Positions 34,046 through 58,515 of a stretch of DNA of 64,000 nt are shown here, piece by piece. The stretch is taken from contig CBIHQY010000030.1 of the NCBI GenBank assembly GCA_966212305.1, positions 9,018-73,017 on the forward strand. The letters are read 5' to 3'. Made by a program: the position numbers and the translations under genes. Within the stretch, counting starts at the first letter, position 1. The number at the start of each line of letters is the position of its first letter. This DNA is from an uncultured Azospirillum sp. (GTDB lineage Bacteria; Pseudomonadota; Alphaproteobacteria; Azospirillales; Azospirillaceae). The notes below the pieces were generated by a model that did not search any database, was not told where the DNA came from, and saw nothing but the letters and a program-made list of their open reading frames with translations.

Positions 34046-36997
34046 CTACAGCTTTACCTCTTTGAGACTGGTGACCACATCAAAGTTGGCTCCGATCGTC
34101 TCAAAATGGCGCTTTCCGCAGGAGACTTTCTGGTTCTCTTTGTTCCGACGCTCCTCTTCATCCAACGTGCTCTTGGTCTCGCGGACAAAGTAGAGCTTCT
34201 CATCGCGCTCGGTGACGAATGCCCAGTCCGGGTTATAGGGGCCAATGGGCGTGTCGATCCTGAACCAGGACGGCAATTTAATGAATAGCTTGACATTTTC
34301 GCTGTCGTCCAAGTCCTTGGCGAACAGCCGCTCGGTTTCGGATTCGAACTCGATGTGATCGAACAGGCATTTGTCCTTGTTCTGCACCTCATACAGGCTA
34401 CTGAGGTAGCGGACGATGCCTTCCTCAGCCTCCTGCTCGATACGGCTCATTTCCCAGAACTGACCGGCGACCTTTTCGTATTGAATGCCTTCGAGCATCA
34501 AATCGTGCAGGGCCGCACCGATCTGCTTGCCCACCTGGGACATGAAAGACTGAGGGTTTACCTTGAACTCATCCAGCCGTCCGCTCTGCTTCAGGATTTG
34601 GACTAGGGTGTGCCGAGTAAGCTCGATTTCCTTTTGCAGGTAAGCGAGTATATCCGGAAGAACCGTGACAGGCTGTACATCGTAGGTGCGCGAGTCCAAT
34701 TCCCGGTCGGCGGCGACGCCAGCTTCGGTGATGTCGATATCGCGCTTGCTGATGGCGATACGGGCGGGTTCAATCTTCGGAATCTTGGTCCTGATACGCT
34801 CCACCGCCTTGGCGATCAGGTCAGCAGTCTTAAACGTAACCCGGTAGCGGGTGCGCTGGCTGATCTTTTCCCACAATGCCTGAAAGTCAGGGTGTAGTTG
34901 AACAGCCTTGCGGAACTTCACTTCTTTCCGCTCACGGGCATTGACCACCCGGTTTTTGAAGAGGCGTTTCTGAAGCTCGTCCACAATTTTGGCTTTCAGG
35001 TCGGCGAACTCCGCCGGAACCTTCAAGTCGAAGCCTGGCTTCTTCGGGTCGAACTTGTCGAGGATTTCGCCTGCCCCATTGATGTAGCCATTGGCCTTCA
35101 GTTCGCTCCAAATGCGGGTCGAGATCTCCTGCCCGATGGGGGCTTCGGTGCCGTTGGGAGCCGGACGCACCAGCTTGGCGAAGTCGATCTTCTCGATTTT
35201 GCCGAACTTGATTCCGAAATCCTCCTCGAATTCCGTCTGGAGCTTCCGGGCAAAGTCTTCATAGGACTCGTTAGCAATGACCGTCAGCCGGTTCACCGAC
35301 TCATCGTGAACCCGTTCGCCCTTGTCGTTAACTGGAAGACGCAGACCTCGCCCAATCTCCTGGCGCTTCCGCTCCACCGACTGACTTTCGTTCAGGGTGC
35401 AAATCTGGAAGACGTTGGGGTTGTCCCAACCTTCGCGCAGGGCGGAATGGGAAAAGATGAAGCGTAGCGGTTCAGCTGGGTCCAGTAGCCGCTCCTTGTC
35501 CCGCATGATCAACGAATAGGTGTCTTCGTCGTCGGCAGTCTTGCCGCTGGTGTCCTTGGCCCGGCCCTGCTTATCCTGCGAGAAATAGCCGTCGTGGACC
35601 TGCGACACATCGAAAGGGATCAACCCCTTGTAGATGGGCTTGGCGGCAAGTTCGAGGAGCGCTTCCTCAAACCACTGTCCAATCTTGCCGAGGCTGGTGG
35701 TCCCGTCCTCGTTGTAAATGCGGTAGTTGGCAACCTTGTCGATGAAGAACAGGGAAAGGACCTTGATGCCTCGGCCGCGGAGGGCACGCTCCTTGCGAAG
35801 GTGTTGTTCGACAGTCTCGCGGACCTGGGCCTTCATCACGTCCTCGCCCTGCCCACCGACTTCCTGGCCCAACTCAAGATAGCGGCCCTGGTTGAACTCG
35901 ATAAACTCGGCACCTGGTGTGCAGTCGATGTCCTGGACGATATAGCCCTGCCGGTAAGCTTGGCGCTCACCGGACTTCAGATACAAATCATCGCGCTTTT
36001 TGACCCAAGCCTTCGCGACTTTGGGGCCGTCCTTGCCTTCCTTGTGGAATTCCACCTGAGCCTTGATGCCGTTGGTGTTGTCCACCTTCAGCAGCTTCAC
36101 GTAGGCGTCATTGAAGCTGTCTTCCGATCGGACCGACGCCACCTCGATGCGCTTCACCAGTCTTAGGTCGTAGGCTTTGATCGGGTCCAGGCGGTACAGC
36201 AGGTTATGGGGATCCTTGTGAGTCGCGCTGTAACGAAGGTTCGCCGCCGGATTGAGGTTGGCGATGGCACGTTTGGATTTGGGGGTGTTATCGACGCTTT
36301 GCGGTTCGTCGATGATCACGATGGGGTTGGTGGATTGGATGAATTCGATAGGCTTTCGGCCCGACATCCGGTCGTTTTCGCGGTTGATGACGTTCAGCTT
36401 CTTCAATTCGTCCTCAGTCATCTCCGACACGTCCTTGTCGGGCACATCCTTCTGGAAGCTTTGGATGTTGATGACCATGATCTGGACGTGGTTGCTGCTA
36501 GCAAACTGCCGCACCTTGCCCAGCCGTTTGGAGTCGTAAACGAAGTGGTCGAACGGAACCTTGTCGTACAGGGTCTGAAAGTGCTCCTTCATCACATCCA
36601 GGCTCTTCAGCACACCTTCGCGAATGGCGACACTGGGCACAACGATGATGAATTTCTTGAAGCCGTAGTTCTTGTTTAGCTCAAAGATGGTGCGGAGATA
36701 GACATAGGTCTTGCCGGTACCCGTTTCCATTTCCACGGAAAATTCGCGACCCTGCAAGGTGTTCACGCGTTCGATGTCATTTTTCTCCTGGGTCTTGTGG
36801 ACGTTGGCAAGCATAGCCTCGTCGAGGAGGTCGATGCGGTTGCCGACGCCTAGCTCCGTCAGCGCCATCCCGGCCTGACCGGATGCCATGCTGATCTCGA
36901 AGTGGGCAGCCTGGATCGGCTGCCCATCGAAGACGTTGACCACTGCCTGAATGGCGTCCTGCTGGTACTCCAGCGAAGGGTCAAACTTGAGCTTCAC
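34046..36997 (-). CDS. res: Type III restriction enzyme Res subunit (helicase plus C-terminal PD-ExK nuclease)
   Basis: 983 aa. Starts MKLKFDPSLEYQQDAIQAVVNVFDGQP. METGTGKTYVY (motif I), IIDEPQS (II), LREGWDNPNVFQICTL, and a C-terminal YNPDWAF...VRETKS nuclease motif. Confidence 0.9.
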   Translation of the reverse strand: MKLKFDPSLEYQQDAIQAVVNVFDGQPIQAAHFEISMASGQAGMALTELGVGNRIDLLDEAMLANVHKTQEKNDIERVNTLQGREFSVEMETGTGKTYVYLRTIFELNKNYGFKKFIIVVPSVAIREGVLKSLDVMKEHFQTLYDKVPFDHFVYDSKRLGKVRQFASSNHVQIMVINIQSFQKDVPDKDVSEMTEDELKKLNVINRENDRMSGRKPIEFIQSTNPIVIIDEPQSVDNTPKSKRAIANLNPAANLRYSATHKDPHNLLYRLDPIKAYDLRLVKRIEVASVRSEDSFNDAYVKLLKVDNTNGIKAQVEFHKEGKDGPKVAKAWVKKRDDLYLKSGERQAYRQGYIVQDIDCTPGAEFIEFNQGRYLELGQEVGGQGEDVMKAQVRETVEQHLRKERALRGRGIKVLSLFFIDKVANYRIYNEDGTTSLGKIGQWFEEALLELAAKPIYKGLIPFDVSQVHDGYFSQDKQGRAKDTSGKTADDEDTYSLIMRDKERLLDPAEPLRFIFSHSALREGWDNPNVFQICTLNESQSVERKRQEIGRGLRLPVNDKGERVHDESVNRLTVIANESYEDFARKLQTEFEEDFGIKFGKIEKIDFAKLVRPAPNGTEAPIGQEISTRIWSELKANGYINGAGEILDKFDPKKPGFDLKVPAEFADLKAKIVDELQKRLFKNRVVNARERKEVKFRKAVQLHPDFQALWEKISQRTRYRVTFKTADLIAKAVERIRTKIPKIEPARIAISKRDIDITEAGVAADRELDSRTYDVQPVTVLPDILAYLQKEIELTRHTLVQILKQSGRLDEFKVNPQSFMSQVGKQIGAALHDLMLEGIQYEKVAGQFWEMSRIEQEAEEGIVRYLSSLYEVQNKDKCLFDHIEFESETERLFAKDLDDSENVKLFIKLPSWFRIDTPIGPYNPDWAFVTERDEKLYFVRETKSTLDEEERRNKENQKVSCGKRHFETIGANFDVVTSLKEVKL

Positions 36998-37010
36998 TTG
37001 TCCCTCCAGG

Positions 37011-38993
37011 TCAGACGGTTTTAAACACGATTTCGCTTTCCTGTGAGGCGGCTCGAGCTTTGAACGTCTGTACGGCGTTTGCTTTTAGCTGATCGTTTCC
37101 TTTGAAAGCCCGGTCCAGGCATATAACTTGGAATGGCTCTCGATCTGCGAGTGCATCTATTAACTCGGGAGTAATTTCGTTTTCCAAGCAGATCAGCAGT
37201 ACGCCTCCGGCAACAGAAAAGGCGGTCGCCTCTCCAACCGTCATGCTATCTATTGAAGCTGTCAGAGGAAATCCCGCTTTAATCAGAAGCTCGTAGAGAA
37301 TTGAGATATGGTCTGCATTCTCAGCAATATGCTCAATGTGAAGGTCAAGCTGTGCTTCCAATTCCGCGCTGACGCTTCCGTCCCAGTTCTTGAAATTTGA
37401 TGCGGCTAGCTTGAAGTGCCGAAAGCCCATATCAAGTTGAGACACGATGAGCGGGTCTGTATTACTTCTAATACTTTCTATCGCCTTTTGCACTCTGTGG
37501 GTGCAGACTTCGCCGATATTGTGCAATCCCATTTTGTAGGCAACTGACTTTTCACTGCAAGCCTCTGGAAGTTGTATCAACATGAACTTGCGGCGGCTGT
37601 TTTCTTCCGCATTAAGTTGCAAGACTGCGTGGGCCGTAGTGCCCGACCCTGCGAAGAAATCCATAACAATGTCATCAGGCCCAGTAAGATACCGGACCAG
37701 ACGCTTAATATCGTTCCAATTCTTTGGGTTATCAAACGTCTTGCTGCCGACGAGATCGACAAACTCCATGGTGGCAGTTTGAGCATAGCTATAGAAAACA
37801 GACGGCATTAGCTGTTGGTCGCTCTCAAACAAGAAGCGACATTGTCTTGGCAATGTGTTGTGATTATCGCCAAAAACGATTCGTCCAGCAGTAACTTCCT
37901 CCCAGAACCGCTCAGGGGAAGGGTGCCGCCACCCGCCGTCTGGGATCTTACATGGCATTTTTGTGATTGGGTGGAGAATCTCATACCGAGGCCCACCACC
38001 TCCGGGCCAGGAAATATCTCCGTCGTCTCGGTATGGGCCTTTGGGGCCGATCTTCGAGAAGCGTCCTAGCTTCTTCCGATGATCGGACGCAGGGATGGCA
38101 TTGAAGAATGCTCTCCACTCTTCCTGGATCGCGTCGTAATCATTGCCATAGCTTGAGACCAGCTTTTTGTAAAAATCCCGCGCCTCTTCGATACCATCTT
38201 TGGGTTCACGGAGAATTATCCCTTGCTCCTGAAGATGTCGAGCGCTGTTCGCGTATACAAGCATGTATTCATGGCCTACAGAAAAGTATCTAGCATCATT
38301 TTTCCGGTTCTTATCCCATACTAGAGTGGAAAGATAGTTCTCCTGACCAAAAATTTCGTCGCAAACGAGTTTTAGATTCGCGTATTCGGCATCATCTATG
38401 CTGATGACAAGGAATCCATCCTCTTGCAGTAGGTTCTTGGCCAAGAATAGGCGTGGGTACATCATGTTCAGCCAGCGAGAGTGAAAGCGCCCGGACTGTT
38501 CCGTATTGGTAGAGAAACGCTTTCCATCCTCGGCTACTTGCCCAGTGTAGCGGAGATAGGTATCGATATTTTCGGAATAGTTGTCCGGGTAAATGAAATC
38601 ATTCCCGGTGTTATAAGGAGGGTCAATGTAAATGAGCTTAACCTTTCCATAATAAGATCTCTGAAGTAACTTGAGAGTCTCGAGGTTATCCCCCTCTATA
38701 ATAATGTTTTCTGAATTATCGAAATCGATGGATGAGTTTGGATTTGGGCGGAGTGTGGCAGTGCTAATCTCTTGGATAACCCGAGTGCATTCAGCTTTTC
38801 CCGGCCAACCAAGGCCGAATCGCTCTTTTCCTGGGTCAACCCATTCGCCAAGCAACCTCTTCAGTTTATCGAAATCGATCCCGCTCTCGGTGGCGATCTC
38901 GGGGAATAGGCTTACCAGTTGCTGGCGCTTCTCCTCAGTGACCTTCATAGAGGTAAGCTGCATCTTCTCGGGCATGTCCATGATGTTTTCCAT
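37011..38993 (-). CDS. mod: Type III-like DNA methyltransferase Mod (beta-class amino-MTase)
   Basis: 660 aa. LIYIDPPYNTGNDFIY (motif IV) lies N-terminal to VMDFFAGSGTTAHAV (motif I), the beta-class order. The start ATG shares one nt with the SNF2 stop. Confidence 0.9.
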   Translation of the reverse strand: MENIMDMPEKMQLTSMKVTEEKRQQLVSLFPEIATESGIDFDKLKRLLGEWVDPGKERFGLGWPGKAECTRVIQEISTATLRPNPNSSIDFDNSENIIIEGDNLETLKLLQRSYYGKVKLIYIDPPYNTGNDFIYPDNYSENIDTYLRYTGQVAEDGKRFSTNTEQSGRFHSRWLNMMYPRLFLAKNLLQEDGFLVISIDDAEYANLKLVCDEIFGQENYLSTLVWDKNRKNDARYFSVGHEYMLVYANSARHLQEQGIILREPKDGIEEARDFYKKLVSSYGNDYDAIQEEWRAFFNAIPASDHRKKLGRFSKIGPKGPYRDDGDISWPGGGGPRYEILHPITKMPCKIPDGGWRHPSPERFWEEVTAGRIVFGDNHNTLPRQCRFLFESDQQLMPSVFYSYAQTATMEFVDLVGSKTFDNPKNWNDIKRLVRYLTGPDDIVMDFFAGSGTTAHAVLQLNAEENSRRKFMLIQLPEACSEKSVAYKMGLHNIGEVCTHRVQKAIESIRSNTDPLIVSQLDMGFRHFKLAASNFKNWDGSVSAELEAQLDLHIEHIAENADHISILYELLIKAGFPLTASIDSMTVGEATAFSVAGGVLLICLENEITPELIDALADREPFQVICLDRAFKGNDQLKANAVQTFKARAASQESEIVFKTV

Positions 38994-41902
38994 TACTGTA
39001 TGGAATATCGGATGGTGAAAAGGTGTTCTTCGGCCACCTGCTGGCGAAGGCGCTCCTCCACTTCATCCAGTAAGGCGTCCTTCTGGGCTTCCAGTCTACG
39101 GGCTGAGGCATCGTATTCGCGCCACGCCTCGTCCCGCTTTTGCTCGAATGTCTTGACCTTTCGTTGCAGTGCCAGCTTGTCGGGCAGATTTCCGGTCTGG
39201 CGCGCTTCTTTCTTCAGCGCCTTGATCTCTTCCTCAAACTCCTTGAACGCGAACTTCAATCCGGCCCGCTTGTCCTCGGCCCACTTGTCCAGCTTGTCCA
39301 TTTCTTCATCGAACCATTCAGACTGGCGTTGCGCGAGATCGTCGAGGATGGTCGACTTAGTGGTCTCAATGGCTTTTTCCAACTTGCCGCTCCTGGCAAT
39401 CCCCTCAGAAGCGGCACTGGCGCATGGAAGCTCGAAGAGCCTGCGCACTGCATCGGGTTCAACGGCCGTTCCGTCGTCCGCGACAGCAGCGAGAATGATA
39501 TGATCCTGCTCATCTGCTCCGGTGATGGAGAGGCGATGTGCGGTCAGCAGACCGGACTTGCCGATAAGCGGTTCGATAGCCGCCGCCTTCCGGCCCCAAC
39601 CCGAATAATCGAACGCCAGCTTGGCCCCGTTCAGCGGACGCTCCGCTGCCGCTTTGAGGATGTGCTGGGCCAGAGGGTGGCCAATGCGGAAGCGATGGCC
39701 GTGTTCGTCGTCTTTGGACAGGTGATAACGGCCCTTCGACACCGACACACCAGCGGGCAGCGAGGCAAGATCGAAGGACAGGCAGCCGTCGTCGAACCGC
39801 GCGTTCTGAGCAAGTTCATGGCGGGTGATCGTCCACAGCAGGCTCTCGTACCTGCCGATATACTCGCGGCTCTGTGACAGGCTGAGCTTCAAGCGGTCGT
39901 GAACCTCAGCGTCGAAGTTCTCCAGCAGCTTGCGGCGCGTATCATCCATCGTTTCCTTGATCTGCTCGTCCATCTCGGCCCGAAGCGCCGCGAATGCCGC
40001 CTCGATTTCGTCGGTGGTCCGGCAGGTTTGATAGATGGCGACGATGCGCTTCTCGAACTCCACACCTGACTCGATAGCGCCGAGAACCTCATCGCTGGCA
40101 CCGAATACGCCACTGAAAAGCTGGAACTTCTCGGCGAGAAGCTGGTGTACGCGCACGTCGGCAGCATTGTTTTTATTCAGGAAGTTGATCACCACCACGT
40201 CATACTTCTGACCATAACGGTGGCAGCGCCCGATGCGCTGTTCAATCCGCTGAGGGTTCCAGGGGAGGTCATAGTTGACCACCATTGAGCAGAACTGAAG
40301 GTTGATACCTTCAGCCGCCGCCTCCGTGGCAATCATGATAGATGCGCTGTCCCGGAAGTGCTCCACCAGGGCGGCACGCATGTCGGCGGTGCGGGAGCCG
40401 GTCACCTTGTCGCTGTCCCTGTGGCGGGCAAGCCACTGCTCGTACATGGCCCGCGATTGCGGGTCGGCATTGGTGCCGTTGAACAGGACAACCTTGCCGT
40501 CGTAGTCGTTGGCGAACAGGAGTTTGACGAGGTACTCCTGGGTGCGGCGAGACTCGGTGAAAATGATGGCCTTCTCGCCCCCGCCAAGGTCCTTAATCTT
40601 AGAGAACCCGGCGCGCAGGGCATTCAGCAGGGCTTGCCCCTTGGCATTTTCCGTCACCGAAACGGCGAGGTCGCGGAACGCCCGAAGATCGGCGATTTCC
40701 CCCTCGATGGCAGCAATGTCGTCCTCGCTGAGGAGAGCAGGATCGTCCTCGTCATCGACCCACTCATCCACCGCCTCGGCCAGCCCCTCGTAGTCCTCGG
40801 AGATCTCCTCGACCTCCTCGGCCTCCAGGTTCTCGTGCAAGGCTCGGTCGTCCTTCAGTTGACGCTCGAGCTTACGGGCAAGGGAGTCCAGGGCGCCGGC
40901 GATGGCGAAGGTGGACGATGCCAGCAGCTTGCGCATGATCAGGGTCATGAGCGTGCGCTGGCTGGACGGCAGCGCTTGGAGGCTGGGGCGGCGCAGATAG
41001 TCCGAAACGAGGTCGTACAGGGTTTGCTCTGCTTCGGTCGGCACGAACTCCTGAAGGATGGGCAGACGCTTGGTATAGCGGATGTACTCAAGAACTTGCC
41101 GACGGAGCGTGCGGTGGCAAACCGCGGTCAGGCGAGCCTTCAAGTCACGGTACAATTCATCGCCGGTCAATCGGGCGAACTGCGCACGGAAGCTCTTGGC
41201 GTCGCCAAAGGTGTACTCGTCGATGATGCTGACAAGGCCATAGAGCTCCATCAGGGAGTTTTGCAGCGGGGTGGCTGTCAACAGCACTTTGGGGGCGTTG
41301 GCGAGGGCGTTCTTGAGCGCGCGGCCAATTCGGTTGTCGGGCCGGTAGACGTTGCGCAGGCGGTGCGCTTCGTCGATCACTACAAGATCCCAGCGCATCA
41401 CCATCAGTTCGTCGGCGTGGCGGGCCGCGAACTGGAAGGAGCACAGGATGATGCAAGGCTGCTCGAAGGGCTGGCGGACGCTGTCCTTCTTCATCTGGTT
41501 GTAATTCTTGGCCTCAAGGATGATGCTCGGCAGAAAGAATTTTTCCTGGAGCTCCTGGGACCACTGCTTTCTCAGGTTGGCCGGGCAGATGATCAAGAGC
41601 CGACGGCGGCGCTCGGACCACTTCTGCGACAGTACGAGACCAGCCTCGATCGTCTTGCCGAGACCAACCTCATCAGCGAGGATCGCGCCCTTGGAGAGCG
41701 GCGACTTAAAAGCGAACAGCGCAGCTTCGACCTGATGTGGGTTCAGGTCTACCTGGGCGTCCAATAGGGCATTGACGAGCTTTTCGGCGTCGGCAACCGA
41801 CTTGCGGCGTAGAAGTTCATGGGCGAACAGCTTGGCGTGGTAATCGGTGATGGCGCTCAAAGGCATAGCCCGCCTACCGCCATCAACACGGTCCAATGGC
41901 AC
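38993..41902 (-). CDS. SNF2-family helicase with a ~330-aa C-terminal extension
   Basis: 969 aa. ILADEVGLGKTIEAG (I), VVIDEAHRLRN (II), LLLTATPLQNSLMELY (III), ATEAAAEGINLQ..NYDLPWNPQRIEQRIGRCHRYGQK (V/VI). The C-terminal part includes a Lys/Glu-rich coiled coil. The start may be the internal MPLSAITDYH. Confidence 0.9.
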   Translation of the reverse strand: MPLDRVDGGRRAMPLSAITDYHAKLFAHELLRRKSVADAEKLVNALLDAQVDLNPHQVEAALFAFKSPLSKGAILADEVGLGKTIEAGLVLSQKWSERRRRLLIICPANLRKQWSQELQEKFFLPSIILEAKNYNQMKKDSVRQPFEQPCIILCSFQFAARHADELMVMRWDLVVIDEAHRLRNVYRPDNRIGRALKNALANAPKVLLTATPLQNSLMELYGLVSIIDEYTFGDAKSFRAQFARLTGDELYRDLKARLTAVCHRTLRRQVLEYIRYTKRLPILQEFVPTEAEQTLYDLVSDYLRRPSLQALPSSQRTLMTLIMRKLLASSTFAIAGALDSLARKLERQLKDDRALHENLEAEEVEEISEDYEGLAEAVDEWVDDEDDPALLSEDDIAAIEGEIADLRAFRDLAVSVTENAKGQALLNALRAGFSKIKDLGGGEKAIIFTESRRTQEYLVKLLFANDYDGKVVLFNGTNADPQSRAMYEQWLARHRDSDKVTGSRTADMRAALVEHFRDSASIMIATEAAAEGINLQFCSMVVNYDLPWNPQRIEQRIGRCHRYGQKYDVVVINFLNKNNAADVRVHQLLAEKFQLFSGVFGASDEVLGAIESGVEFEKRIVAIYQTCRTTDEIEAAFAALRAEMDEQIKETMDDTRRKLLENFDAEVHDRLKLSLSQSREYIGRYESLLWTITRHELAQNARFDDGCLSFDLASLPAGVSVSKGRYHLSKDDEHGHRFRIGHPLAQHILKAAAERPLNGAKLAFDYSGWGRKAAAIEPLIGKSGLLTAHRLSITGADEQDHIILAAVADDGTAVEPDAVRRLFELPCASAASEGIARSGKLEKAIETTKSTILDDLAQRQSEWFDEEMDKLDKWAEDKRAGLKFAFKEFEEEIKALKKEARQTGNLPDKLALQRKVKTFEQKRDEAWREYDASARRLEAQKDALLDEVEERLRQQVAEEHLFTIRYSIQ

Positions 41903-42077: not shown

Positions 42078-42135
42078 GGTGTGTTCCGGTGTTCTCCTGT
42101 TCCGCACACTTGTCCACGCAACACCAGAGACAGGT
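42078..42135 (+). repeat. GTGTTCCGGTG element, copy 1
   Basis: GTGTGTTCCGGTGTTCTC ... AACACCAGAGACAGG. The 18-mer is identical to copy 2. Confidence 0.6.
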
Positions 42136-44373: not shown

Positions 44374-44458
44374 CGGTGTTCTTGGTGTTCAGTGTGTTCC
44401 GGTGTTCTCTCGCCGCACGGGCTGGTACACGGAACACACTGAACACCAGCGACAGAGG
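44374..44458 (+). repeat. GTGTTCCGGTG element, copy 2, containing an 18-bp perfect inverted repeat
   Basis: GGTGTTC heptamers at 44374, 44384, about 44393 and 44401. Arms GGTGTTCAGTGTGTTCCG (44384-44401) and CGGAACACACTGAACACC (44430-44447). Ends AACACCAGCGACAGAGG. Confidence 0.7.
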
Positions 44459-44518: not shown

Positions 44519-44994
44519 TTGATGGAGGCTGCTGAGGTGCTCGCGCGTCCATCGCTGATTCCGGCCGCGCCCGGCGTCTACGCTTGGTTCTTCCGGAAGG
44601 CGCCACCGACGAACGGTACGCCGCTCAGCCGACAGACGCTGCGTAGCCGGATACGCTACCATTACCGGGCGAACACCGAGGGCTCGACGCTGCGGCTGAC
44701 GCTGGGCTGCCTGTTGGCGAACTCGCTCGGCATCGAACTCCGCCGAGTCGGCTCAGGGACGCGGATGACGTTCAGCACCGGCGAAGCGACCTTGTCGAAG
44801 TGGATGGCGGCAAACGCGTTGGTGCCCTGGGAGGACATACCCGCCCATGGGAGGCCGAGAAGGCGCTTATCCGGTCCGTATCCCTGCCGCTAAATCTGCA
44901 AGGCGACCAGCATCATCCGTTCCAAGTTCAACTGACTGCCATCCAGGCTGCGGCGAAGCAGCGAGTACGTCTCCTTCCGGTGTCGGGCCGGTGA
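44519..44994 (+). pseudogene. GIY-YIG-like family gene, frameshifted and internally shortened
   Basis: PGVYAWFFRKAPP...QTLRSRIRYHYRANTEGSTLRLTLGCLL...LSKWMAANALVPWEDIP, then a frame change near 44841-44848 into PWEAEKALIRSVSLPLNLQGDQHHPF. The usual YIG segment appears to be missing. Confidence 0.5.
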
Positions 44995-45224
44995 GCGGGA
45001 AGCTGGGCGTGGTGGCCATAGACATGCGGCCCGGTGCGCATAGGATTGCTCGCAAGCGGTTACCGGCATGAGAATGGAGCAATAACGAAAGCGAGCCGGT
45101 CAATCACGGTGCCGACGACGGTGCAGGCGCGCTTCGAGGAGAGCATCGGCATCACAGGTGCGTTCTGCGCCGCGGTGTCTATGGCTGAAGCCGGGAGCTT
45201 GTACGGGGCAAAATAACGCTTCGA

Positions 45225-45914
45225 TCAGGACGACATCACTGCAGGGGTTTGGAGGCGTCCGGCCGCGCGCAGGGCGGCGATTTCGGTCTTCAGTAGTTCC
45301 ATGCCGCATTTCTGCTTGTCGCGGTTCGCTGCAGAGTTGAGGAAGCGACTCGTGCCTGATGTGTGGGCCAGATAGACAATGGTCCGGTCGTCCCATTTTT
45401 CCGAGGTGCCTACCACTTCGCCCAATGACCGGCGTGTCATCCGGCGGAGGCGATCCAGCGAGCTCATCGCCACGCTGCCCAGTGCGACGATGACGGCTGG
45501 GCGCACCAAGTCAAGCTGTCGGCTTAGGAAATCGCCGCACAGCTTGTGCATCGTGGCGCACGGTGGCCTGTCTTCCCAGCGTTCCCCGTTGAGCTTCCGG
45601 CCCGGAAAGCATTTCACAGCTGAGGTCTGGTAGACTGTTCCGTCGAACTCCATGTGGCGCAGGCCACATCGCACGAACAGCCCGCGAATCTCTTGCCCGG
45701 CACTCCCAGCGAACGGTTGACCCTCTCGATACTCCGTTAACCCTGGAGCTTGGCCGATCAGCATGATCGGCGCCTCTATTGCGGGCGAAAGAATGGGCCT
45801 GGGAACGACGCCGCGCGTGGACCCTGGCGGGTTCTCGGGATATTGCGCGAGGATCGGGCCGCAATGTTTGCAGGATCGGATTTCCTGGTCGAGAGCGGCA
45901 AGCTCGTCAAGCAT
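45225..45914 (-). CDS. Uracil-DNA glycosylase superfamily protein
   Basis: From the ATG at 45914: MLDELAALDQEIRSCKHCGP..., IMLIGQAPGLTEYREGQPFAGSAGQEI (UDG motif A-like), VYLAHTSG (motif B-like). Confidence 0.7.
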   Translation of the reverse strand: MLDELAALDQEIRSCKHCGPILAQYPENPPGSTRGVVPRPILSPAIEAPIMLIGQAPGLTEYREGQPFAGSAGQEIRGLFVRCGLRHMEFDGTVYQTSAVKCFPGRKLNGERWEDRPPCATMHKLCGDFLSRQLDLVRPAVIVALGSVAMSSLDRLRRMTRRSLGEVVGTSEKWDDRTIVYLAHTSGTSRFLNSAANRDKQKCGMELLKTEIAALRAAGRLQTPAVMSS

Positions 45915-45944
45915 AGTGGGCTCCGCTGAATGCAAGCCGGATGG

Positions 45945-46193
45945 CAGGTGGAATTCCAGAGCTATCTTGGGTCGATGTCCAGCACGTTCGAGGCGATGGA
46001 TGGCGGCGAATGCGCTGGTGTCCTGAATGGAGCACCCTCGCGCCCTCGGGAAGCCGAGGAGGAATTCATCCAGTTTGTGTCCTTGCCGCTGAACTTGCAA
46101 GGCAACCAGCAACACCCATTCCCTCTGCGCCTGACGGCCATCCGAGCGGCAGCGAAGGAGCAGGCGCGTCGTCATCCGGTGTCGGTCCGGTGA
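45945..46193 (+). pseudogene. Second, more decayed C-terminal copy of the GIY-YIG-like gene
   Basis: ..RWMAANALVS* (TGA where the paralogue has Trp), then in another frame REAEEEFIQFVSLPLNLQGNQQHPFPLRLTAIRAAAK. Roughly 75-80 percent nucleotide identity to 44800-45000 by eye. Confidence 0.45.
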
Positions 46194-46279
46194 GTGAGAA
46201 GTCGGGCGTGGTCGTCATGGACATGTGTCCCGGTACGCGTAGGGTTGCTCGAAAGCGGTCATCGGCATGAGGTACGAGG

Positions 46280-46792
46280 ATGACAAGGGCCAGCCGGTCA
46301 ATGACGGTGCCGAAGGCGATGCACGCGCGCTTCGAGGAAATCGTCGGCATCACGGATGCGTTCTGTGACAAGCACCTTGATGCCGAGTACAACGAGTTGG
46401 TCCGGCGGATGACGGCGGCCCTGTGTAGGAAGCGTCCAAGTCCGGTGGCGTCTGGCAAGCCGGTGACATGGGCCAGCGGCATCATCTGGGCGCTCGGTCG
46501 GGTGAACTTCCTGTCGGACCCGTCCACGCCGTCGATGACGCTGGCGGAAGTGGCGAGCGCGTTCGGCGTCGGCGAGAGCACCGTCAGTGCCAAGTCCCGG
46601 ACGATCATGAACCTGTTCGACCTGCACCAGTTCCACCCCGACTGGACGCTGCCGCGTCTTGCTGAGTCGAACCCGTACATCTGGATGGCCGAGGTGAACG
46701 GGCTGCTGGTGGACCTGCGCGACATGCCGCGAGAGGTGCAGGCCATCGCCTACGAGAAGGGGATGATCCTCTACATCCCGGCCGACCGGTAG
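46280..46792 (+). CDS. DUF6398-like protein
   Basis: 170 aa: FCDKHLDAEYNELVRRMTAALCRKRPSPVASGKPVTWASGIIWALGRVNFLSDPSTP..VASAFGVGESTVSAKSRTI. A truncated paralogous start occurs at 45100-45216. Confidence 0.65.
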   Translation: MTRASRSMTVPKAMHARFEEIVGITDAFCDKHLDAEYNELVRRMTAALCRKRPSPVASGKPVTWASGIIWALGRVNFLSDPSTPSMTLAEVASAFGVGESTVSAKSRTIMNLFDLHQFHPDWTLPRLAESNPYIWMAEVNGLLVDLRDMPREVQAIAYEKGMILYIPADR

Positions 46793-46812: not shown

Positions 46813-46856
46813 GGTGTTCCGGTGCTTTCTTCTGGTATCGTACACTCGAAACACCG
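46813..46856 (+). repeat. GTGTTCCGGTG element, copy 3 (more diverged)
   Basis: GGTGTTCCGGTGCTTTC ... ACACTCGAAACACC, located 20 nt after the DUF6398 stop at the border of an AT-rich block. Confidence 0.45.
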
Positions 46857-46901
46857 TATCAACGCCTCGAATACCAAGGGCACGCGGACCTCGACACCTC
46901 C

Positions 46902-47984
46902 TCACGCGGGATTTTGCCTCTTTTCGGTCAGAGATTTTATCATGCTTTGCGTAAAATCATCGCGGAAAGCAAATCTATACTCAGAATCGGTCAACTGTAT
47001 CACGATTGGCTGATCTCCTGACCCGAAATAATTCACTCTTACATGTTGGGTGCCCGCCCGCGGGCCAGAGCGAAATAAGAAGAAATTTACAAGCCAGCGG
47101 TATTCGGTGCCCGGAACAGATACTTTATTATCGTCAAATCTATCGAAAACAGGGTCAATTACGTAGAGCCTATCATTGGAGTTTTCTGTGCTCCAATCAC
47201 ACACCAAGTTGACTAAGCGGTCTTTTTGGTATGTAGATTTAACAAAGCATGGTAGAAGATTGCATGAAAGGTCGCCTGTCTCTTCTTCGCTAACCTCCCA
47301 AAAAAGCTGCATCACATCAGAGAGCTTTTCGAAGGCCCCTCTGCGAACGTAGGCCATTTCAAAGGTGCCTCCCCAGGCATCTAATATCCCCGCTCCTGTG
47401 GCTAGTTGGTTGCCGAATGCGTGGGAGATGAATAAAAGCCCTTTCCCAATTGCAGCTTCCAAGGCGTTGGCGTTTCCACTAAGATGTCCGCTCGATATCA
47501 TCTCGATTGCCTGAACGAATGCGGGAGTTCCACTTCCGGCAACCTGAATATCAGTAAGCGCATCCAGATCAAACATAGGGGCATTTCTGTCTCTTCTCCA
47601 GAACCCCTTTCCATCATAGAAATACGATATAAGGCATAGGTCCCCAAGATCCTCTGCTGGGTAGCTGTCTAGAATTAAGTTGTATTCATCCGCCGTTATG
47701 GTTGCTCTGCTTGCGTGCTCGCGCAGGTAATTCATGAAAGACTTTGCGTAAATATAGCTTCCTGACCACGCAACACATAATTTCTCAGATATCAGGTTGA
47801 CCTTCTGGCGGGAGCCGCAGACCGTCAAAGCTTTGTTGCCTACAATGGCTTGATTCACCATGTGAATTGTTGGAATTGATACCTCTACGCCTTCTTCGTA
47901 AGTCTCCTTTGAAATAAGGGCATCTCCCAAGATTATAGGGCATCCACCAAAAACAAATGCGGCAATCAGCGTCATAATCGGCAC
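46902..47984 (-). CDS. HslV/proteasome beta-like Ntn-hydrolase candidate with a C-terminal extension
   Basis: The second Met (47975) is followed by Thr. Counting from that Thr: ILGD with Asp at position 17, RQKVNLISEKLCVAWSGS (compare HslV KKVRRLYNDKVIAGFAGG), IQVAGSGTPAF (compare IAIGSGG). About half of the protein (C-terminal) has no recognisable motif. Visibly AT-rich gene. Confidence 0.65.
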   Translation of the reverse strand: MPIMTLIAAFVFGGCPIILGDALISKETYEEGVEVSIPTIHMVNQAIVGNKALTVCGSRQKVNLISEKLCVAWSGSYIYAKSFMNYLREHASRATITADEYNLILDSYPAEDLGDLCLISYFYDGKGFWRRDRNAPMFDLDALTDIQVAGSGTPAFVQAIEMISSGHLSGNANALEAAIGKGLLFISHAFGNQLATGAGILDAWGGTFEMAYVRRGAFEKLSDVMQLFWEVSEEETGDLSCNLLPCFVKSTYQKDRLVNLVCDWSTENSNDRLYVIDPVFDRFDDNKVSVPGTEYRWLVNFFLFRSGPRAGTQHVRVNYFGSGDQPIVIQLTDSEYRFAFRDDFTQSMIKSLTEKRQNPA

Positions 47985-48081
47985 CTCTCACAGTGATATG
48001 TATTATGTTGCAGGAGTAGAGATTGCTCAATAGGGACTAAGCTTCATAAGCTTGAGGCAAACTCAGATGGTGAGAAATACC

Positions 48082-56492: not shown

Positions 56493-58331
56493 TCACCCGG
56501 CGGGGGCGCCGCACTGTTCCGGGGTGATCGGGTCCACGGCCGGGTCGAAACGGCGCAAGTGCGACAGGTCGATCTCGGGGTTGAACAGGTCCACCGCGAT
56601 CTTCAGTTTGTCGGGTTTGACCCTCTTCAAGTAGGTCGCCCCCTCGCCCAGTATGGACGTCAGCTTGTGACCGATGACTTTCGAGACGTGGGCGGACTTC
56701 GAGTTTTCGTCTTCCTCGACGAAGGTACGGAACGTCGCCCGCAACGCGTGAAATGGGCGTTTCGGGTCGTAAATGCCCGTGGCCCGTGTGTACGCGGTGA
56801 ACCGCTGACTGTAGTAGTGAGAAAATTTCTTGTCCGGACCCCGACGCTTGAGGGTCGGCCAGAGGTGTTGGTTGGTCTTTCCCCGGAACAGATCTACGTA
56901 TTCGAGGAATCCCAGGTCGATCAGCAATCGATGTACCGGGACGACGCGGACACCCGCGGGCGTCTTAACGTGGTTCTCGCCCTCTTTGTGCACGTTCATT
57001 ACCCAGGTGCCTCTGATCTGCCGGATGTCCGTGGCTTGAAGCTGTGCGATCTCCTCCTGGCGAAGGCCGTGAAAGACGGCGAGGAGGGGCAGCCAATAAT
57101 AGGCATCATAGATGACCGCAGAGCCCGCCTTGGAGCGCTGGCGCGGGTTGCAGCCGGTCCAGACCGGCGTCTGGAACAGGGCGTTGAGGGCATCCTCCTC
57201 CCACATCTCTCGGCCCGATTCGGTCTTGCCGTACTTGTGACCGAGGAAGATGTTCTCGCCGCGATGGTTGTACGTCGTCTTCCGTTCGAGAACCCACCCC
57301 ATGAAGCCGGAGAGGGCGGACATGTGCCGCTTCACCGTCTTGATCAGCAGGCCCGGAGGCGGCGCCTGATTGTCTGCGATCATCCGCTTCACGGTGTCGA
57401 CCGTTTCGCGCATGGGCATGCGCCAATCTTTGGCCTTGCCGTGCAACCTCGGCAGGTACTCCATACCCAGCTTGAACTCCTCCGCCTCGTCCCGGGTGTA
57501 ACGGTTAAGCGGCCGGTCGCCATGGAACTCGATCCACATGCGGATGGTGGTCGCGTTCTGACGCTGGGTCTGCGCGTTCCAGGCGTCCTTGCCGCGGCGG
57601 GGCGACGTCATGTCCGCCTCATGTTCCTTGTAGGCCACTGAGAGCAGCATGAGCGGCGCAAGCTCGGGAAGTGGCTGGGCGGGCACCGGCGGGACGACAG
57701 GTTCAGGTGCGGCAAGCGGTATCGGCGCGGGCGCAGGCTCGAGGTCACCGAGCGGCGGGTATTCGCCCCGGGCCGCGTCGCCCAGGCGCTCGCAGCATTC
57801 GGCGGCGGCGCGGGTCAGCGCGCGCGCCAGGACGGACAGGTCGGGTTCCGCGGGCTCGCGCCCCGTCTGTCGAAGAAGGTCGGCCGCCTTTCCCTTCATG
57901 TCCTCAATGTCGTTGTACGCCAGGGCATTGCGGAAGCGCTGTTCCGTCGCCTGATGGATCTGCGGCTGCAAGGCACGGACGAGATAGCCGAGGTCATGCC
58001 CGTCGGGGACGCCCACCTCCGCCGGTTCAGCGAAGTCAAAGCCCTGGCTACGCTTGACCTCCGCCTCCCATAGCTGGTCGGCGAGCCACTCCCGGACCAA
58101 GCGGTCGGTTTCCTGGCGGGTCAGCGTCGGTCGCTTCATGATCTCGTCAAACAGTTGTTCCGTACGCAGCCACGCGATGCGCGCCCGCGCGGCCGCCATG
58201 AGCCGGTCGCCGGTGCGCAGGGAGCGTACGATCTCCCGGCGGCCAACGCGCTCCCGCATACCATCGGGCACGCGCCGCCGGAAGTGCCAAATGGACCCCT
58301 GAAGCCGCAGGTTAGGATGACGATGCGCCAC
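56493..58331 (-). CDS. int: Tyrosine-type site-specific integrase (DUF6538-type N-terminus)
   Basis: 612 aa. Starts MAHRHPNLRLQGSIWHFRRRVP. The C-terminus has FHALRATFRTF, IGHK and LKRV..Y-type catalytic signature. The start lies 111 bp from the tRNA-Gln 3' end. Confidence 0.9.
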   Translation of the reverse strand: MAHRHPNLRLQGSIWHFRRRVPDGMRERVGRREIVRSLRTGDRLMAAARARIAWLRTEQLFDEIMKRPTLTRQETDRLVREWLADQLWEAEVKRSQGFDFAEPAEVGVPDGHDLGYLVRALQPQIHQATEQRFRNALAYNDIEDMKGKAADLLRQTGREPAEPDLSVLARALTRAAAECCERLGDAARGEYPPLGDLEPAPAPIPLAAPEPVVPPVPAQPLPELAPLMLLSVAYKEHEADMTSPRRGKDAWNAQTQRQNATTIRMWIEFHGDRPLNRYTRDEAEEFKLGMEYLPRLHGKAKDWRMPMRETVDTVKRMIADNQAPPPGLLIKTVKRHMSALSGFMGWVLERKTTYNHRGENIFLGHKYGKTESGREMWEEDALNALFQTPVWTGCNPRQRSKAGSAVIYDAYYWLPLLAVFHGLRQEEIAQLQATDIRQIRGTWVMNVHKEGENHVKTPAGVRVVPVHRLLIDLGFLEYVDLFRGKTNQHLWPTLKRRGPDKKFSHYYSQRFTAYTRATGIYDPKRPFHALRATFRTFVEEDENSKSAHVSKVIGHKLTSILGEGATYLKRVKPDKLKIAVDLFNPEIDLSHLRRFDPAVDPITPEQCGAPAG

Positions 58332-58441
58332 GCCGGATCTCCCGAACCGAATGGATCGGACCCTGGCTGTGGATTAGCGTTGTGGACTAAACGCTCCACC
58401 GGCCGGGCCGGGAGGTCGGAACCGCGCTGTTCGGAAAAGGT

Positions 58442-58458
58442 TGGTTGGGGGACTAGGA
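58442..58458. repeat. attR-type direct repeat (3' end of tRNA-Gln)
   Basis: TGGTTGGGGGACTAGGA, identical to 20434-20450. Confidence 0.8.
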
Positions 58459-58515
58459 TTCGAACCTAGGCTGGCGGAGTCAGAGTCCGCTGTCCTACCG
58501 CTAGACGATCCCCCA
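58442..58515 (-). tRNA. tRNA-Gln: tRNA-Gln, anticodon CUG
   Basis: The reverse complement folds as a cloverleaf: acceptor UGGGGGA/UCCCCCA, anticodon stem GCGGA/UCCGC with loop CUCUGAC, T-arm GGTTCGAATCC, and an encoded CCA. 74 nt. Confidence 0.9.

What the first reader, a model, noticed from the sequence alone, without database searches (positions are those of the whole stretch)
46902..47984. HslV/proteasome-like Ntn-hydrolase with a large unknown C-terminal half, alone on an AT-rich islet
Seen in sequence:
- The ORF begins MPIM-TLIAAFVFGGCPIILGDALIS. If translation starts at the second Met, Thr becomes residue 1 after Met removal, and Asp falls exactly at position 17 (ILGD).
- RQKVNLISEKLCVAWSGS resembles the HslV Lys33 region KKVRRLYNDKVIAGFAGG.
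- IQVAGSGTPAF resembles IAIGSGG.

Established knowledge: Thr1, Asp17 and Lys33 form the catalytic set of HslV and 20S beta subunits.

Unusual points:
- There is an insertion of about 24 aa between Asp17 and the Lys region.
- The C-terminal half has no motif I recognise.
- No HslU-like ATPase or proteasome alpha subunit lies nearby.
- The gene sits in a visibly AT-rich block between a cassette-border element (46813) and the ArdC/relaxase block of a mobile element.

Inference: this is a self-contained peptidase effector, either defence or anti-defence. I know of no described system of this type.
Basis: partly seen in the sequence, partly recalled or inferred. Interest (0 to 1): 0.7.

Follow-up and report, generated by a model that had tools for sequence, protein, structure and literature searches.

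The report
Stand-alone proteasome-like threonine protease gene
This gene encodes a lone, horizontally mobile relative of the proteasome/HslV protease with an intact catalytic centre and an extra C-terminal domain of unrecognised fold; it belongs to a large, unannotated family whose function is untested but which often sits in mobile elements and next to anti-phage genes.

Summary
The ORF at window 46902-47975 (- strand, 357 aa from the second Met) begins Met-Thr. It sits in a 1.25-kb AT-rich block (GC 0.45-0.49 against 0.6-0.73) with its own promoter-like site and Shine-Dalgarno. It has at least 881 relatives (clusters at 50% identity), and none is covered by Pfam, NCBIfam or PADLOC. In the 156 best hits, Thr2 is present in all 145 that reach the N-terminus, Asp18 in 153/153, Lys58 in 154/155 and the G-S/T-G motif in 152/155. 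An AlphaFold model (pLDDT 92.8) matches 20S proteasome subunits (Foldseek probability 1.0). A 27-residue insertion lies between strands S3 and S4, the site of the connectase lid. The C-terminal 146 residues fold confidently but match nothing in the PDB or BFVD. No neighbouring gene is conserved across 22 independent loci, and no HslU or alpha subunit is present. The gene is AT-richer than its flanks in 21 of 22 loci. It lies inside a type I R-M operon in Oscillatoria and next to AbiU, McrBC, Mrr or STAND genes elsewhere. About a third of loci have only housekeeping flanks. A self-contained peptidase is well supported. A defence role is suggestive only. Stand-alone proteasome homologues of this kind were catalogued in 2021, so the novelty is moderate.

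The parts
46902..47975 (-). Coding sequence, 357 aa plus stop, read from the second Met (ATG 47975-47973). The listed GTG start at 47984 overlaps the ribosome-binding site and is unlikely to be used.
   Evidence: P0001 (100% identical, 357 aa) and all nine close homologues start MTLIA. In 134 of 156 family members Thr is residue 2 of the called protein, and in 10 more it follows an internal Met.
47343..47975 (-). N-terminal proteasome/HslV-like Ntn-hydrolase domain (residues 1 to about 211). Catalytic codons: Thr2 at 47972-47970, Asp18 at 47924-47922, Lys58 at 47804-47802. G72 corresponds to Gly47, and G147-S148-G149 to the Ser129 motif.
   Evidence: AlphaFold pLDDT 92.8, pTM 0.92. Foldseek against the PDB gave 567 hits at E<=1e-3, and the top 50 are all 20S subunits at probability 1.0. 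The family profile's best PDB hits are proteasome alpha7, beta1 and HslV. hhalign to HslV. Residue conservation.
47826..47906 (-). Insertion of 27 residues (24-50) between strands S3 and S4, that is between Asp17 and Lys33. It is an ordered loop with a one-turn helix and a nearly invariant Pro35.
   Evidence: Secondary structure and pLDDT of 89-94 over this stretch. Pro35 is present in 125 of 126 sequences. The gap in the HslV alignment falls here. This is the same site as the connectase lid and the PMI-5/6 insertions (PMC8665760).
46905..47342 (-). C-terminal domain (residues 212-357): eight beta strands and a terminal helix, with an unassigned fold. Conserved residues are K217, W226, Y249 and P275.
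   Evidence: Separate model with pLDDT 93.0, pTM 0.86. Best Foldseek hit in the PDB has E = 0.24 at TM about 0.2. Best hit in BFVD has E = 0.075. No Pfam match. A profile search found only a truncated family member. Conservation.
47982..47989 (-). Shine-Dalgarno sequence GAGAGGTG. Eight bases separate its AGG core from the ATG.
   Evidence: Read directly from the sequence.
48002..48030 (-). Sigma-70-like promoter, TTGAGC, 17 nt, CATAAT, inside the AT-rich block.
   Evidence: Consensus scan, 9 of 12 positions matched. This is a pattern match only, not evidence of function.
46830..48080 (.). AT-rich islet holding only this gene and its expression signals.
   Evidence: GC is 0.45-0.50 against 0.6-0.73 in the flanks. 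The same offset is seen for family members in 21 of 22 loci.

Best explanation
The gene encodes an active, stand-alone member of the proteasome/HslV (MEROPS T1-type) N-terminal-nucleophile hydrolases.

Shown:
- Translation starts at Met-Thr.
- The fold is that of a 20S subunit.
- Thr1, Asp17, Lys33, the Gly47 position and the G-S/T-G loop are conserved across a family of at least 881 sequence clusters.
- There is no propeptide, no alpha subunit, no HslU and no other conserved neighbour.

Inferred from established knowledge of the family:
- Methionine aminopeptidase removes the initiator Met.
- The free amino group and hydroxyl of Thr1, with Lys33 and Asp17, then attack a peptide bond.

Inferred from position only:
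- The conserved 27-residue loop inserted at the S3/S4 site, where connectase carries its substrate-selecting lid, and the family-specific C-terminal beta domain restrict the enzyme to particular substrates. They may also control when it is active. The enzyme would then be a specific protease, or a transpeptidase, rather than a bulk degradation chamber.

Inferred from context:
- The gene moves horizontally as a single-gene, AT-rich cassette with its own promoter. It accumulates in mobile elements and beside restriction and abortive-infection genes.
- The most likely biological role is therefore as an accessory conflict gene. Most probably it is a one-gene anti-phage or anti-plasmid effector that cleaves a host or invader protein once triggered.
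For: Start codon and RBS. Family size and N-terminal register: 881 clusters at E<=1e-3, nearly all aligning query residue 4 to their residue 1. Conservation in the unfiltered top 156: Thr 145/145 aligned, Asp 153/153, Lys 154/155, G72 150/156, G147 and G149 155/155, S/T148 152/155. Sequence link to the proteasome family: family profile against the PDB gives alpha7 at E=2.6e-4, beta1 at 0.026 and HslV at 0.041; PF00227 is the only Pfam family hit by more than one member (7 of 126); hhalign to HslV pairs the catalytic residues. Fold: pLDDT 92.8, and the Foldseek top 50 are all 20S subunits at probability 1.0. E. coli HslV crystallises starting at Thr1, so its initiator Met is removed. No conserved partner in 22 loci. 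AT-rich offset in 21 of 22 loci, median about -0.13. Promoter-like site inside the islet. Context: the window copy sits between ArdC/relaxase and DUF6398/UDG/GIY-YIG/SNF2-MTase-Res cargo of a tRNA-Gln-linked element. Other copies: abutting hsdS and overlapping hsdR in Oscillatoria; directly after an AbiU/AIPR gene, with SLATT nearby; next to McrBC plus DUF2726, Mrr, a NACHT/STAND gene, DUF4062 and GmrSD/WYL. Integrases, resolvases or plasmid backbones occur in 9 of 22 loci.
Against: There is no biochemical or genetic evidence of any kind. Pfam PF00227 is never reached at its gathering score. The Asp166/Ser169 positions of 20S beta subunits have no clear equivalent; the family has an invariant [WYF]-G-G-[GA]-[FY]-E motif there instead. 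No PADLOC model matches the protein. The defence association is modest, with 9 of 22 loci carrying defence-type neighbours, and no background control was computed. Some PADLOC neighbour hits are generic, for example UvrA scoring as mad3. Seven loci have only housekeeping neighbours; in one, the gene follows a fatty-acid oxidation gene by 15 nt. The oligomeric state, which decides activity in classical proteasome subunits, is unknown.
Confidence: 0.6

Rival explanations
1. It is a connectase-like, sequence-specific protein ligase or transpeptidase rather than a hydrolase. Thr1 forms an acyl intermediate with one target protein, and the intermediate is resolved by an amine instead of water. The S3/S4 insertion acts as the lid.
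For: The insertion sits at the site of the connectase lid. The protein has no propeptide and no partner, and it carries an extra C-terminal domain, as some connectases do. The insertion holds a nearly invariant Pro35, which suggests a specific binding element.
Against: Connectase lacks helices H1 and H2 and is confined to methanogenic archaea (Table 1). This protein keeps H1 (residues 74-88) and H2 (95-104) and is bacterial. The insertion is mostly loop with a single helical turn, not two helices. No conserved neighbouring substrate gene was found.
Confidence: 0.15
2. It is an anti-defence or establishment factor of mobile elements. It is expressed early after transfer and destroys a host immunity protein in the recipient.
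For: In the window it lies two genes downstream of ArdC and the relaxase, on the same strand. The only two PLSDB hits are on mobilisable or conjugative plasmids. Recombinases are frequent neighbours.
Against: Most loci are chromosomal and lack transfer genes. Several are next to core genes such as secA/argJ, uvrA/ssb and uvrB. There was no hit in 50,697 phage genomes and none in IMG/VR with two pattern sets. One copy sits inside a type I R-M operon, an odd place for an anti-restriction gene.
Confidence: 0.1
3. It is a housekeeping or stress protease that self-assembles into rings, like Anbu or BPH, and degrades unfolded proteins without an ATPase.
For: It has the same fold and catalytic residues as the ring-forming homologues. 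Anbu and BPH also lack dedicated ATPases (PMC8665760). Seven of 22 loci have housekeeping flanks.
Against: The gene is a compositional outlier in 21 of 22 genomes. It is patchily distributed and sits in a different neighbourhood in every locus, unlike a core gene. According to Fuchs et al., the S3/S4 insertion and the C-terminal domain are the kinds of element that change or prevent stacked-ring assembly.
Confidence: 0.08
4. It works with bacterial ubiquitin-like conjugation systems, as a processing or degrading protease for Ubl-tagged proteins.
For: Both plasmid-borne copies lie 3-7 kb from a Multi_ubiq/E2/ThiF-E1 cluster. The two loci are evolutionarily independent: the homologues share 22% identity, the E1s 28%, and there is no DNA similarity.
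Against: The genes are not in the same operon. R-M genes, or an integrase and KfrA, lie between them. None of the other 20 loci has Ubl, E1 or E2 genes; the ThiF gene in L001 belongs to a housekeeping operon. Both cases could simply be shared residence in defence islands.
Confidence: 0.05

Closest known systems
Uncharacterised proteasome-like homologues catalogued by Fuchs, Alva and Lupas 2021 (PMC8665760), especially the proteobacterial subfamilies with extra C-terminal domains (GPH, written 'DGH' in the text; RPC; DAH)
   Same: Proteasome beta-like core with Thr1, Asp17, Lys33 and Gly47. No propeptide, no AAA+ partner and no informative gene context. A C-terminal domain that matches no known structure. 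Found in Proteobacteria.
   Different: By the features the paper lists, no subfamily combines an S3/S4 insertion (listed only for connectase, PMI-5 and PMI-6) with a C-terminal domain (connectase, DAH, FC4, RPC, DGH) while keeping helices H1 and H2. RPC lacks H2, and this protein has it. Identity with one of the 22 could not be tested, because only accession numbers are given and none matched the members I could look up.
HslV (ClpQ), the bacterial proteasome homologue
   Same: The initiator Met is followed directly by the catalytic Thr. The G-D, K and G-S-G motifs are in the same order and align.
   Different: HslV has 175 residues, no S3/S4 insertion and no C-terminal domain. It is encoded with HslU and works as a double hexamer capped by that ATPase. 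Here there is a 24-residue insertion, 146 extra residues and no ATPase gene.
20S proteasome beta subunits (Pfam PF00227)
   Same: Best structural matches, with Foldseek E about 1e-6 over about 235 columns. Lys58 to Gly72 is 14 residues. That equals the Lys33-to-Gly47 spacing in standard 20S beta numbering, which I took from established knowledge and did not measure on a beta sequence here.
   Different: No propeptide and no alpha subunit. PF00227 is reached only weakly, by 7 of 126 members. The Asp166/Ser169 region is replaced by a G-G-x-[FY]-E motif.
Connectase (archaeal protein ligase, PDB 6ZVZ)
   Same: A partner-less proteasome homologue with an insertion between S3 and S4 over the active site and, in some members, a C-terminal beta domain.
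   Different: Connectase lacks H1 and H2, occurs only in methanogens and has a two-helix lid. This family keeps H1 and H2, is bacterial and has a mostly non-helical insertion.
Genes embedded in type I R-M operons, such as the anticodon nuclease PrrC in the EcoprrI locus (from my own knowledge, not tested here)
   Same: The Oscillatoria copy is wedged between hsdS and hsdR, with abutting or overlapping reading frames. That is the arrangement of R-M-guarded suicide effectors.
   Different: Only 1 of 22 loci shows this arrangement. The effector here would be a protease rather than a nuclease. No functional link has been shown.

Membership tests
Proteasome-like Ntn hydrolases (MEROPS T1 / Pfam clan of PF00227) | Alpha-beta-beta-alpha Ntn sandwich fold of 20S subunits | tested here: met
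   AlphaFold pLDDT 92.8. Foldseek against the PDB: 567 hits at E<=1e-3, the top 50 all 20S subunits, probability 1.0, TM normalised to target 0.43-0.64.
Proteasome-like Ntn hydrolases (MEROPS T1 / Pfam clan of PF00227) | Thr (or Ser) as the first residue of the mature chain | tested here: met
   Met-Thr start with an RBS. Thr is present in all 145 of 156 top hits that reach the N-terminus, and the other 11 are N-terminally truncated gene calls. Removal of the Met itself is inferred, not shown.
Proteasome-like Ntn hydrolases (MEROPS T1 / Pfam clan of PF00227) | Asp/Glu17 and Lys33 | tested here: met
   Asp18 in 153/153 and Lys58 in 154/155. They align to D17 and K33 of HslV and to the RK of alpha7.
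Proteasome-like Ntn hydrolases (MEROPS T1 / Pfam clan of PF00227) | Gly47 oxyanion position and the Gly-Ser129-Gly loop | tested here: met
   G72 in 150/156. It lies 14 residues after the Lys, which equals the Lys33-to-Gly47 spacing in standard 20S beta numbering (from my own knowledge), and it aligns to the A-G of alpha7. G147 and G149 in 155/155, S/T148 in 152/155.
Proteasome-like Ntn hydrolases (MEROPS T1 / Pfam clan of PF00227) | Asp166 and Ser169 support residues | tested here: inconclusive
   The region after helix H4 carries an invariant G202-G203 and E206 instead. Equivalence could not be settled without model coordinates.
Proteasome-like Ntn hydrolases (MEROPS T1 / Pfam clan of PF00227) | Score above the PF00227 gathering threshold | tested here: not met
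   The query has no PF00227 hit. Only 7 of 126 members hit it, best E 0.006.
HslV | Adjacent hslU ATPase gene, compact chain of about 175 aa | tested here: not met
   No HslU in the window or in any of 22 loci. The protein has 357 aa with an insertion and an extra domain.
Connectase | S3/S4 two-helix lid, absence of helices H1/H2, methanogen distribution, ligase activity | tested here: not met
   The insertion site is shared, but H1 (74-88) and H2 (95-104) are present and the hosts are bacteria. Ligase activity cannot be tested here.
RPC subfamily of Fuchs et al. 2021 | Lacks helix H2; related to phage PPH | tested here: not met
   H2 is present. No tblastn hit in phages. Only 1 of 126 members touches a PHROG HslV family.
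GPH/'DGH', DAH and the other subfamilies of Fuchs et al. 2021 | Sequence clustering with the representative sequences (WP_152342571.1, WP_085249540.1 and so on) | not testable with these tools
   The paper gives only accession numbers. The sequences cannot be fetched here, and the accessions I looked up do not coincide with them.
Known anti-phage defence systems (PADLOC-DB 2.0) | Match to a defence protein model | tested here: not met
   No PADLOC families for the protein.
Defence-island gene (guilt by association) | Enrichment next to known defence genes over background | tested here: inconclusive
   9 of 22 loci have R-M, Abi, Mcr, Mrr, STAND, GmrSD or Ubl genes within about 8 kb. 7 of 22 have only housekeeping flanks. 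No background rate was computed.

The most novel reading that the evidence does not exclude
A proteasome-fold threonine protease acts as a single-gene immune effector. Its family-specific C-terminal domain, or the S3/S4 lid, senses an invader cue, or the loss of a guarded restriction complex as in the hsdS-[gene]-hsdR arrangement. That unleashes Thr1-dependent cleavage of an essential host or phage protein. It would be the first immune function for a prokaryotic proteasome homologue, and a new protein fold serving as its sensor.
Probability: 0.25. Interest if true: 0.75.

Novelty: new member of a known kind. Interest (0 to 1): 0.5.

Why it matters
Proteasome-family enzymes are usually thought of as ATPase-fed degradation chambers. 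Connectase showed that a lone homologue can be a highly specific enzyme of biotechnological use. This family is large (at least 881 clusters at 50% identity) and is invisible to Pfam, NCBIfam and PADLOC, yet its catalytic centre is perfectly kept and it carries a confidently folded domain with no structural relative. Its behaviour is new information that Fuchs et al. did not find for their subfamilies: it is a single-gene AT-rich cassette in mobile elements, once sits inside a type I R-M operon, and twice lies near ubiquitin-like conjugation clusters. That gives a concrete, testable hypothesis for one branch of the uncharacterised proteasome homologues. If the defence role fails, the family is still a candidate source of a new sequence-specific protease or ligase.

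Tried and rejected
- Single-sequence searches of Pfam, PADLOC and PDB sequences gave nothing meaningful. The weak DUF2135 hit (E 0.08, 21 residues) was ignored.
- NCBIfam and PHROGs: no family.
Narrower alignments returned only 6 loci each from genomes and metagenomes.
- Conserved-partner search by all-against-all blastp of ORFs of at least 50-70 aa in 19 and then 22 loci: nothing beyond resolvase (3 loci), ThiF (3 loci) and antisense shadows of the gene itself.
- Independent occurrence of the C-terminal domain: the profile search found only a truncated family member, P0183.
- Viral origin: no tblastn hit in INPHARED and no confirmed hit in IMG/VR.
- Matching to the Fuchs et al. representative accessions: not possible.
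- The distal attachment repeat of the tRNA-Gln-linked element was not found in the window.
- PADLOC scan of 118 neighbour proteins: the strong 'mad3' hit turned out to be housekeeping UvrA, so raw PADLOC counts were not used as evidence.
- An inactive pseudo-enzyme was rejected because every catalytic position is invariant.
- A non-peptide amidohydrolase (penicillin-acylase type) was considered unlikely, because the Thr-Asp-Lys arrangement and the fold matches are specific to the proteasome family.
Full report
1. The observation

The ORF 46902..47984 on the minus strand is present. Its listed GTG start is almost certainly not used. Nine bases downstream is an ATG (47975-47973), preceded by GAGAGGTG with eight bases between its AGG core and the ATG. 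The identical database protein P0001 and all close homologues begin at that Met with M-T-L-I-A. The protein therefore has 357 residues and starts Met-Thr.

The GC fraction drops to 0.45-0.50 between about 46.8 and 48.1 kb, against 0.6-0.73 on both sides. A sigma-70-like promoter match (TTGAGC, 17 nt, CATAAT; 48030-48002) lies inside this block. The block is therefore a one-gene unit with its own expression signals.

2. The family

The word-indexed search found only nine relatives. The exhaustive HMMER search found 881 representative clusters at E<=1e-3 and 364 at E<=1e-10. Almost all are 350-390 aa long, and almost all align query residue 4 to their own residue 1.

My 126-sequence alignment (A2) was pre-filtered for M/V/L-T starts, so I re-examined the unfiltered top 156 hits with an HMM alignment:
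- Thr is present in all 145 sequences that reach the N-terminus. It is residue 2 in 134 of them and follows an internal Met in 10, which are probably mis-called starts.
- The remaining 11 are N-terminally truncated calls, not substitutions.
- Asp18 is present in 153/153, Lys58 in 154/155, Gly72 in 150/156, and G147 and G149 in 155/155.
- Residue 148 is Ser or Thr in 152/155.
- Further near-invariant positions are Pro35 (inside the insertion), Gln57, Trp70, Ala77, G202-G203, Glu206, Lys217, Trp226, Tyr249 and Pro275.

No member is named anything other than 'hypothetical protein'. Pfam, NCBIfam, PADLOC and PHROGs have no model for the family.

3. Relationship to the proteasome

At the sequence level the link is weak but consistent.
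- The family profile's best PDB hits are proteasome alpha7 (E=2.6e-4), beta1 (0.026) and HslV (0.041).
- PF00227 is the only Pfam family hit by more than one member (7 of 126).
- hhalign against E. coli HslV pairs Thr2 with Thr1, G17-D18 with G16-D17, K58 with K33, and the AWxG segment with FAGG. I had verified that HslV sequence against PDB entry 1E94, whose chain begins at Thr1.
- Lys58 to Gly72 is 14 residues. That equals the Lys33-to-Gly47 spacing in standard 20S beta numbering, which I took from established knowledge rather than measuring it here.

At the structural level the link is decisive. An AlphaFold model built on 34 sequences has pLDDT 92.8 and pTM 0.92. Foldseek against the PDB returns 567 hits at E<=1e-3, and the top 50 are all 20S alpha or beta subunits at probability 1.0 over about 235 columns. 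The model shows the canonical order of strands S1-S5, helices H1/H2, four strands (called S6-S9 here), helices H3/H4 and the following strands.

4. What differs from classical members

(a) Residues 24-50, between S3 and S4, form a confidently modelled loop with one helical turn (pLDDT 89-94). This is the 24-residue insertion between Asp17 and Lys33. Fuchs et al. describe this site as the location of the mobile lid that gives connectase its substrate specificity. They list insertions there only for connectase, PMI-5 and PMI-6.

(b) Residues 212-357 were modelled separately at pLDDT 93.0. They form eight strands and a terminal helix. They have no significant match in the PDB (best E=0.24, TM about 0.2) or in BFVD (best E=0.075). 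A profile of this domain retrieved only a truncated family member.

(c) The Asp166/Ser169 region of beta subunits is replaced by an invariant G-G-x-[FY]-E motif.

(d) There is no propeptide.

5. Genomic context

In the window, the gene sits in an element that abuts tRNA-Gln (58442-58515) and a 612-aa integrase. The gene order is integrase, HTH, Ros/MucR, MobC, relaxase, ArdC, a 130-aa ORF, this gene, DUF6398, a UDG-family gene, GIY-YIG, EAL, and then an SNF2 helicase, an N6/N4 methyltransferase and a ResIII endonuclease.

I assembled 21 further independent loci.
- An all-against-all comparison of their ORFs found no conserved neighbour. The gene is a stand-alone module with no HslU, alpha subunit or other AAA+ partner.
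- In 21 of 22 loci the gene is AT-richer than its ±5 kb flanks, by a median of about 0.13. This holds even where it lies 15 nt behind a fatty-acid oxidation gene (L008) or between ssb and a TPR gene next to uvrA (L011). That is the signature of repeated horizontal acquisition.

Defence-type neighbours occur in 9 of 22 loci:
- In the Oscillatoria nigro-viridis plasmid the gene starts 2 nt after hsdS and overlaps hsdR by 20 nt, inside a type I R-M operon.
- In L028 it follows an AIPR/AbiU gene (PADLOC E=7.6e-39), with a SLATT gene nearby.
- In L032 it faces a McrBC pair and a DUF2726 gene.
- L009 has an Mrr-type endonuclease.
- L010 has an 889-aa NACHT/STAND protein.
- L024 has a DUF4062 protein.
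- L013 has GmrSD and WYL genes.
- The window itself carries the SNF2/methyltransferase/ResIII cluster, and the Ca. Tenderia plasmid (L019) has the ubiquitin-like cluster described below.

Recombinases, relaxases or plasmid backbones occur in 9 of 22 loci. Seven loci show only housekeeping flanks. No relative was found in 50,697 phage genomes or in IMG/VR. I did not compute a background rate. One strong PADLOC hit among the neighbours, mad3, proved to be ordinary UvrA. The defence association should therefore be read as suggestive, not established.

6. An unexplained detail

The only two hits in 72,556 plasmids both lie 3-7 kb from a Multi-ubiquitin/E2/ThiF-E1 cluster. The two loci are evolutionarily independent: the homologues share 22% identity, the E1s share 28%, and there is no DNA similarity. 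The genes are not in one operon, and the other 20 loci have nothing similar. I rate a functional link as possible but unlikely.

7. Mechanism

Shown: the fold, the catalytic residues and the absence of a partner.

Inferred from established knowledge of the family:
- Methionine aminopeptidase exposes Thr1.
- The Thr1 hydroxyl, activated by its own amino group and Lys33 and oriented by Asp17, attacks a peptide carbonyl.
- The backbone at the Gly47 position stabilises the transition state.

Inferred from position only: the S3/S4 loop and the C-terminal domain confer substrate specificity or regulation. The enzyme would then be a specific protease, or a connectase-like transpeptidase, rather than a bulk degradation chamber.

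Inferred from context: it is an accessory conflict gene, most probably a one-gene defence effector. The R-M-embedded copy recalls guarded suicide effectors such as PrrC. That comparison comes from my own knowledge and was not tested here.

8. Comparison with what is known, and novelty

Fuchs, Alva and Lupas (2021, PMC8665760) described 22 new proteasome-like subfamilies. All have the Thr1/Asp17/Lys33/Gly47 set, none has a propeptide, and none has an informative context or AAA+ partner. Several carry C-terminal domains that match no known structure (RPC, DAH, 'DGH'/GPH).

The present family is therefore of a known kind. By the features the paper lists, no described subfamily combines an S3/S4 insertion, retained H1/H2 helices and a C-terminal domain, and RPC is excluded because it lacks H2. 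Sequence-level identity with GPH, DAH or another subfamily could not be tested here. I put the chance that the family is already in that catalogue at roughly one half.

None of the papers citing the catalogue, and no defence-discovery paper in the searchable library, assigns a function to such a protein.

9. Verdict

The interpretation as a self-contained Ntn peptidase is well supported. The defence or anti-defence role is a reasonable but unproven inference, with defence more likely than anti-defence. The claim of complete novelty is overstated. Interest is moderate. The family is large, unannotated and catalytically intact, it carries a domain of unrecognised fold, and its context now suggests an experiment.

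Noticed in passing
window 42079-42124, 44383-44448, 46814-46830: Three copies of a short element (core GTGTTCCGGTGYTYTC) lie in the intergenic gaps between cargo genes. The middle copy sits inside a perfect 19-nt inverted repeat (44383-44401 / 44430-44448). Its nature (regulator site, REP-like element or recombination site) is unknown.
   Followed up: partly
window 44801-45167 and 45997-46365: An imperfect direct duplication (75-86% identity, spacing about 1.2 kb) covers the 3' end of a GIY_YIG_2 gene and the 5' start of a DUF6398 gene. A UDG-family gene (45225-46175, minus strand) lies between the copies. This suggests modular rearrangement of the cargo region.
   Followed up: partly
window 56493-58515: tRNA-Gln(ctg) at 58442-58515 (minus strand) lies about 110 bp from the start of a 612-aa integrase gene (DUF6538 plus Phage_integrase). 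This is probably the attachment site of the mobilisable element that carries MobC, relaxase and ArdC. No second copy of the tRNA 3' 25-mer is present in the window, so the far end of the element was not located.
   Followed up: partly
window 34046-41902: Three large minus-strand genes (SNF2 helicase, N6/N4 DNA methyltransferase, ResIII plus RE_endonuc) form a restriction-like cargo cluster in the same element.
   Followed up: no
L018 (Oscillatoria nigro-viridis PCC 7112 plasmid NC_019763.1, 27.6-42.3 kb): A family member (WP_015211639.1, 393 aa) is wedged between hsdS and hsdR of a type I R-M operon. It starts 2 nt after hsdS and overlaps hsdR by 20 nt. A SprT-family metalloprotease follows, and a multiubiquitin/E2/E1/DUF6527 cluster lies upstream.
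   Followed up: partly
L019 (Ca. Tenderia electrophaga plasmid CP013100.1, record 903-1910): The family member here is not annotated as a gene in the plasmid table. A Multi_ubiq protein (three repeats) and a ThiF-type E1, annotated only as hypothetical proteins, lie 3-5 kb away, separated from it by an integrase and a KfrA-like gene.
   Followed up: partly
L011 4076-6943 (Massilia MAG): Ordinary UvrA scores E=3.6e-101 against the PADLOC model 'mad3' and 7e-37 against 'mad8'. These models give generic hits outside their system context.
   Followed up: yes
L008 5427-9089 (Gammaproteobacteria MAG): The family member starts 15 nt after a FadB-like gene at the end of a fatty-acid oxidation cluster, yet its GC is 0.42 against 0.61 for the flanks. 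It looks like a single-gene insertion into a metabolic operon.
   Followed up: partly
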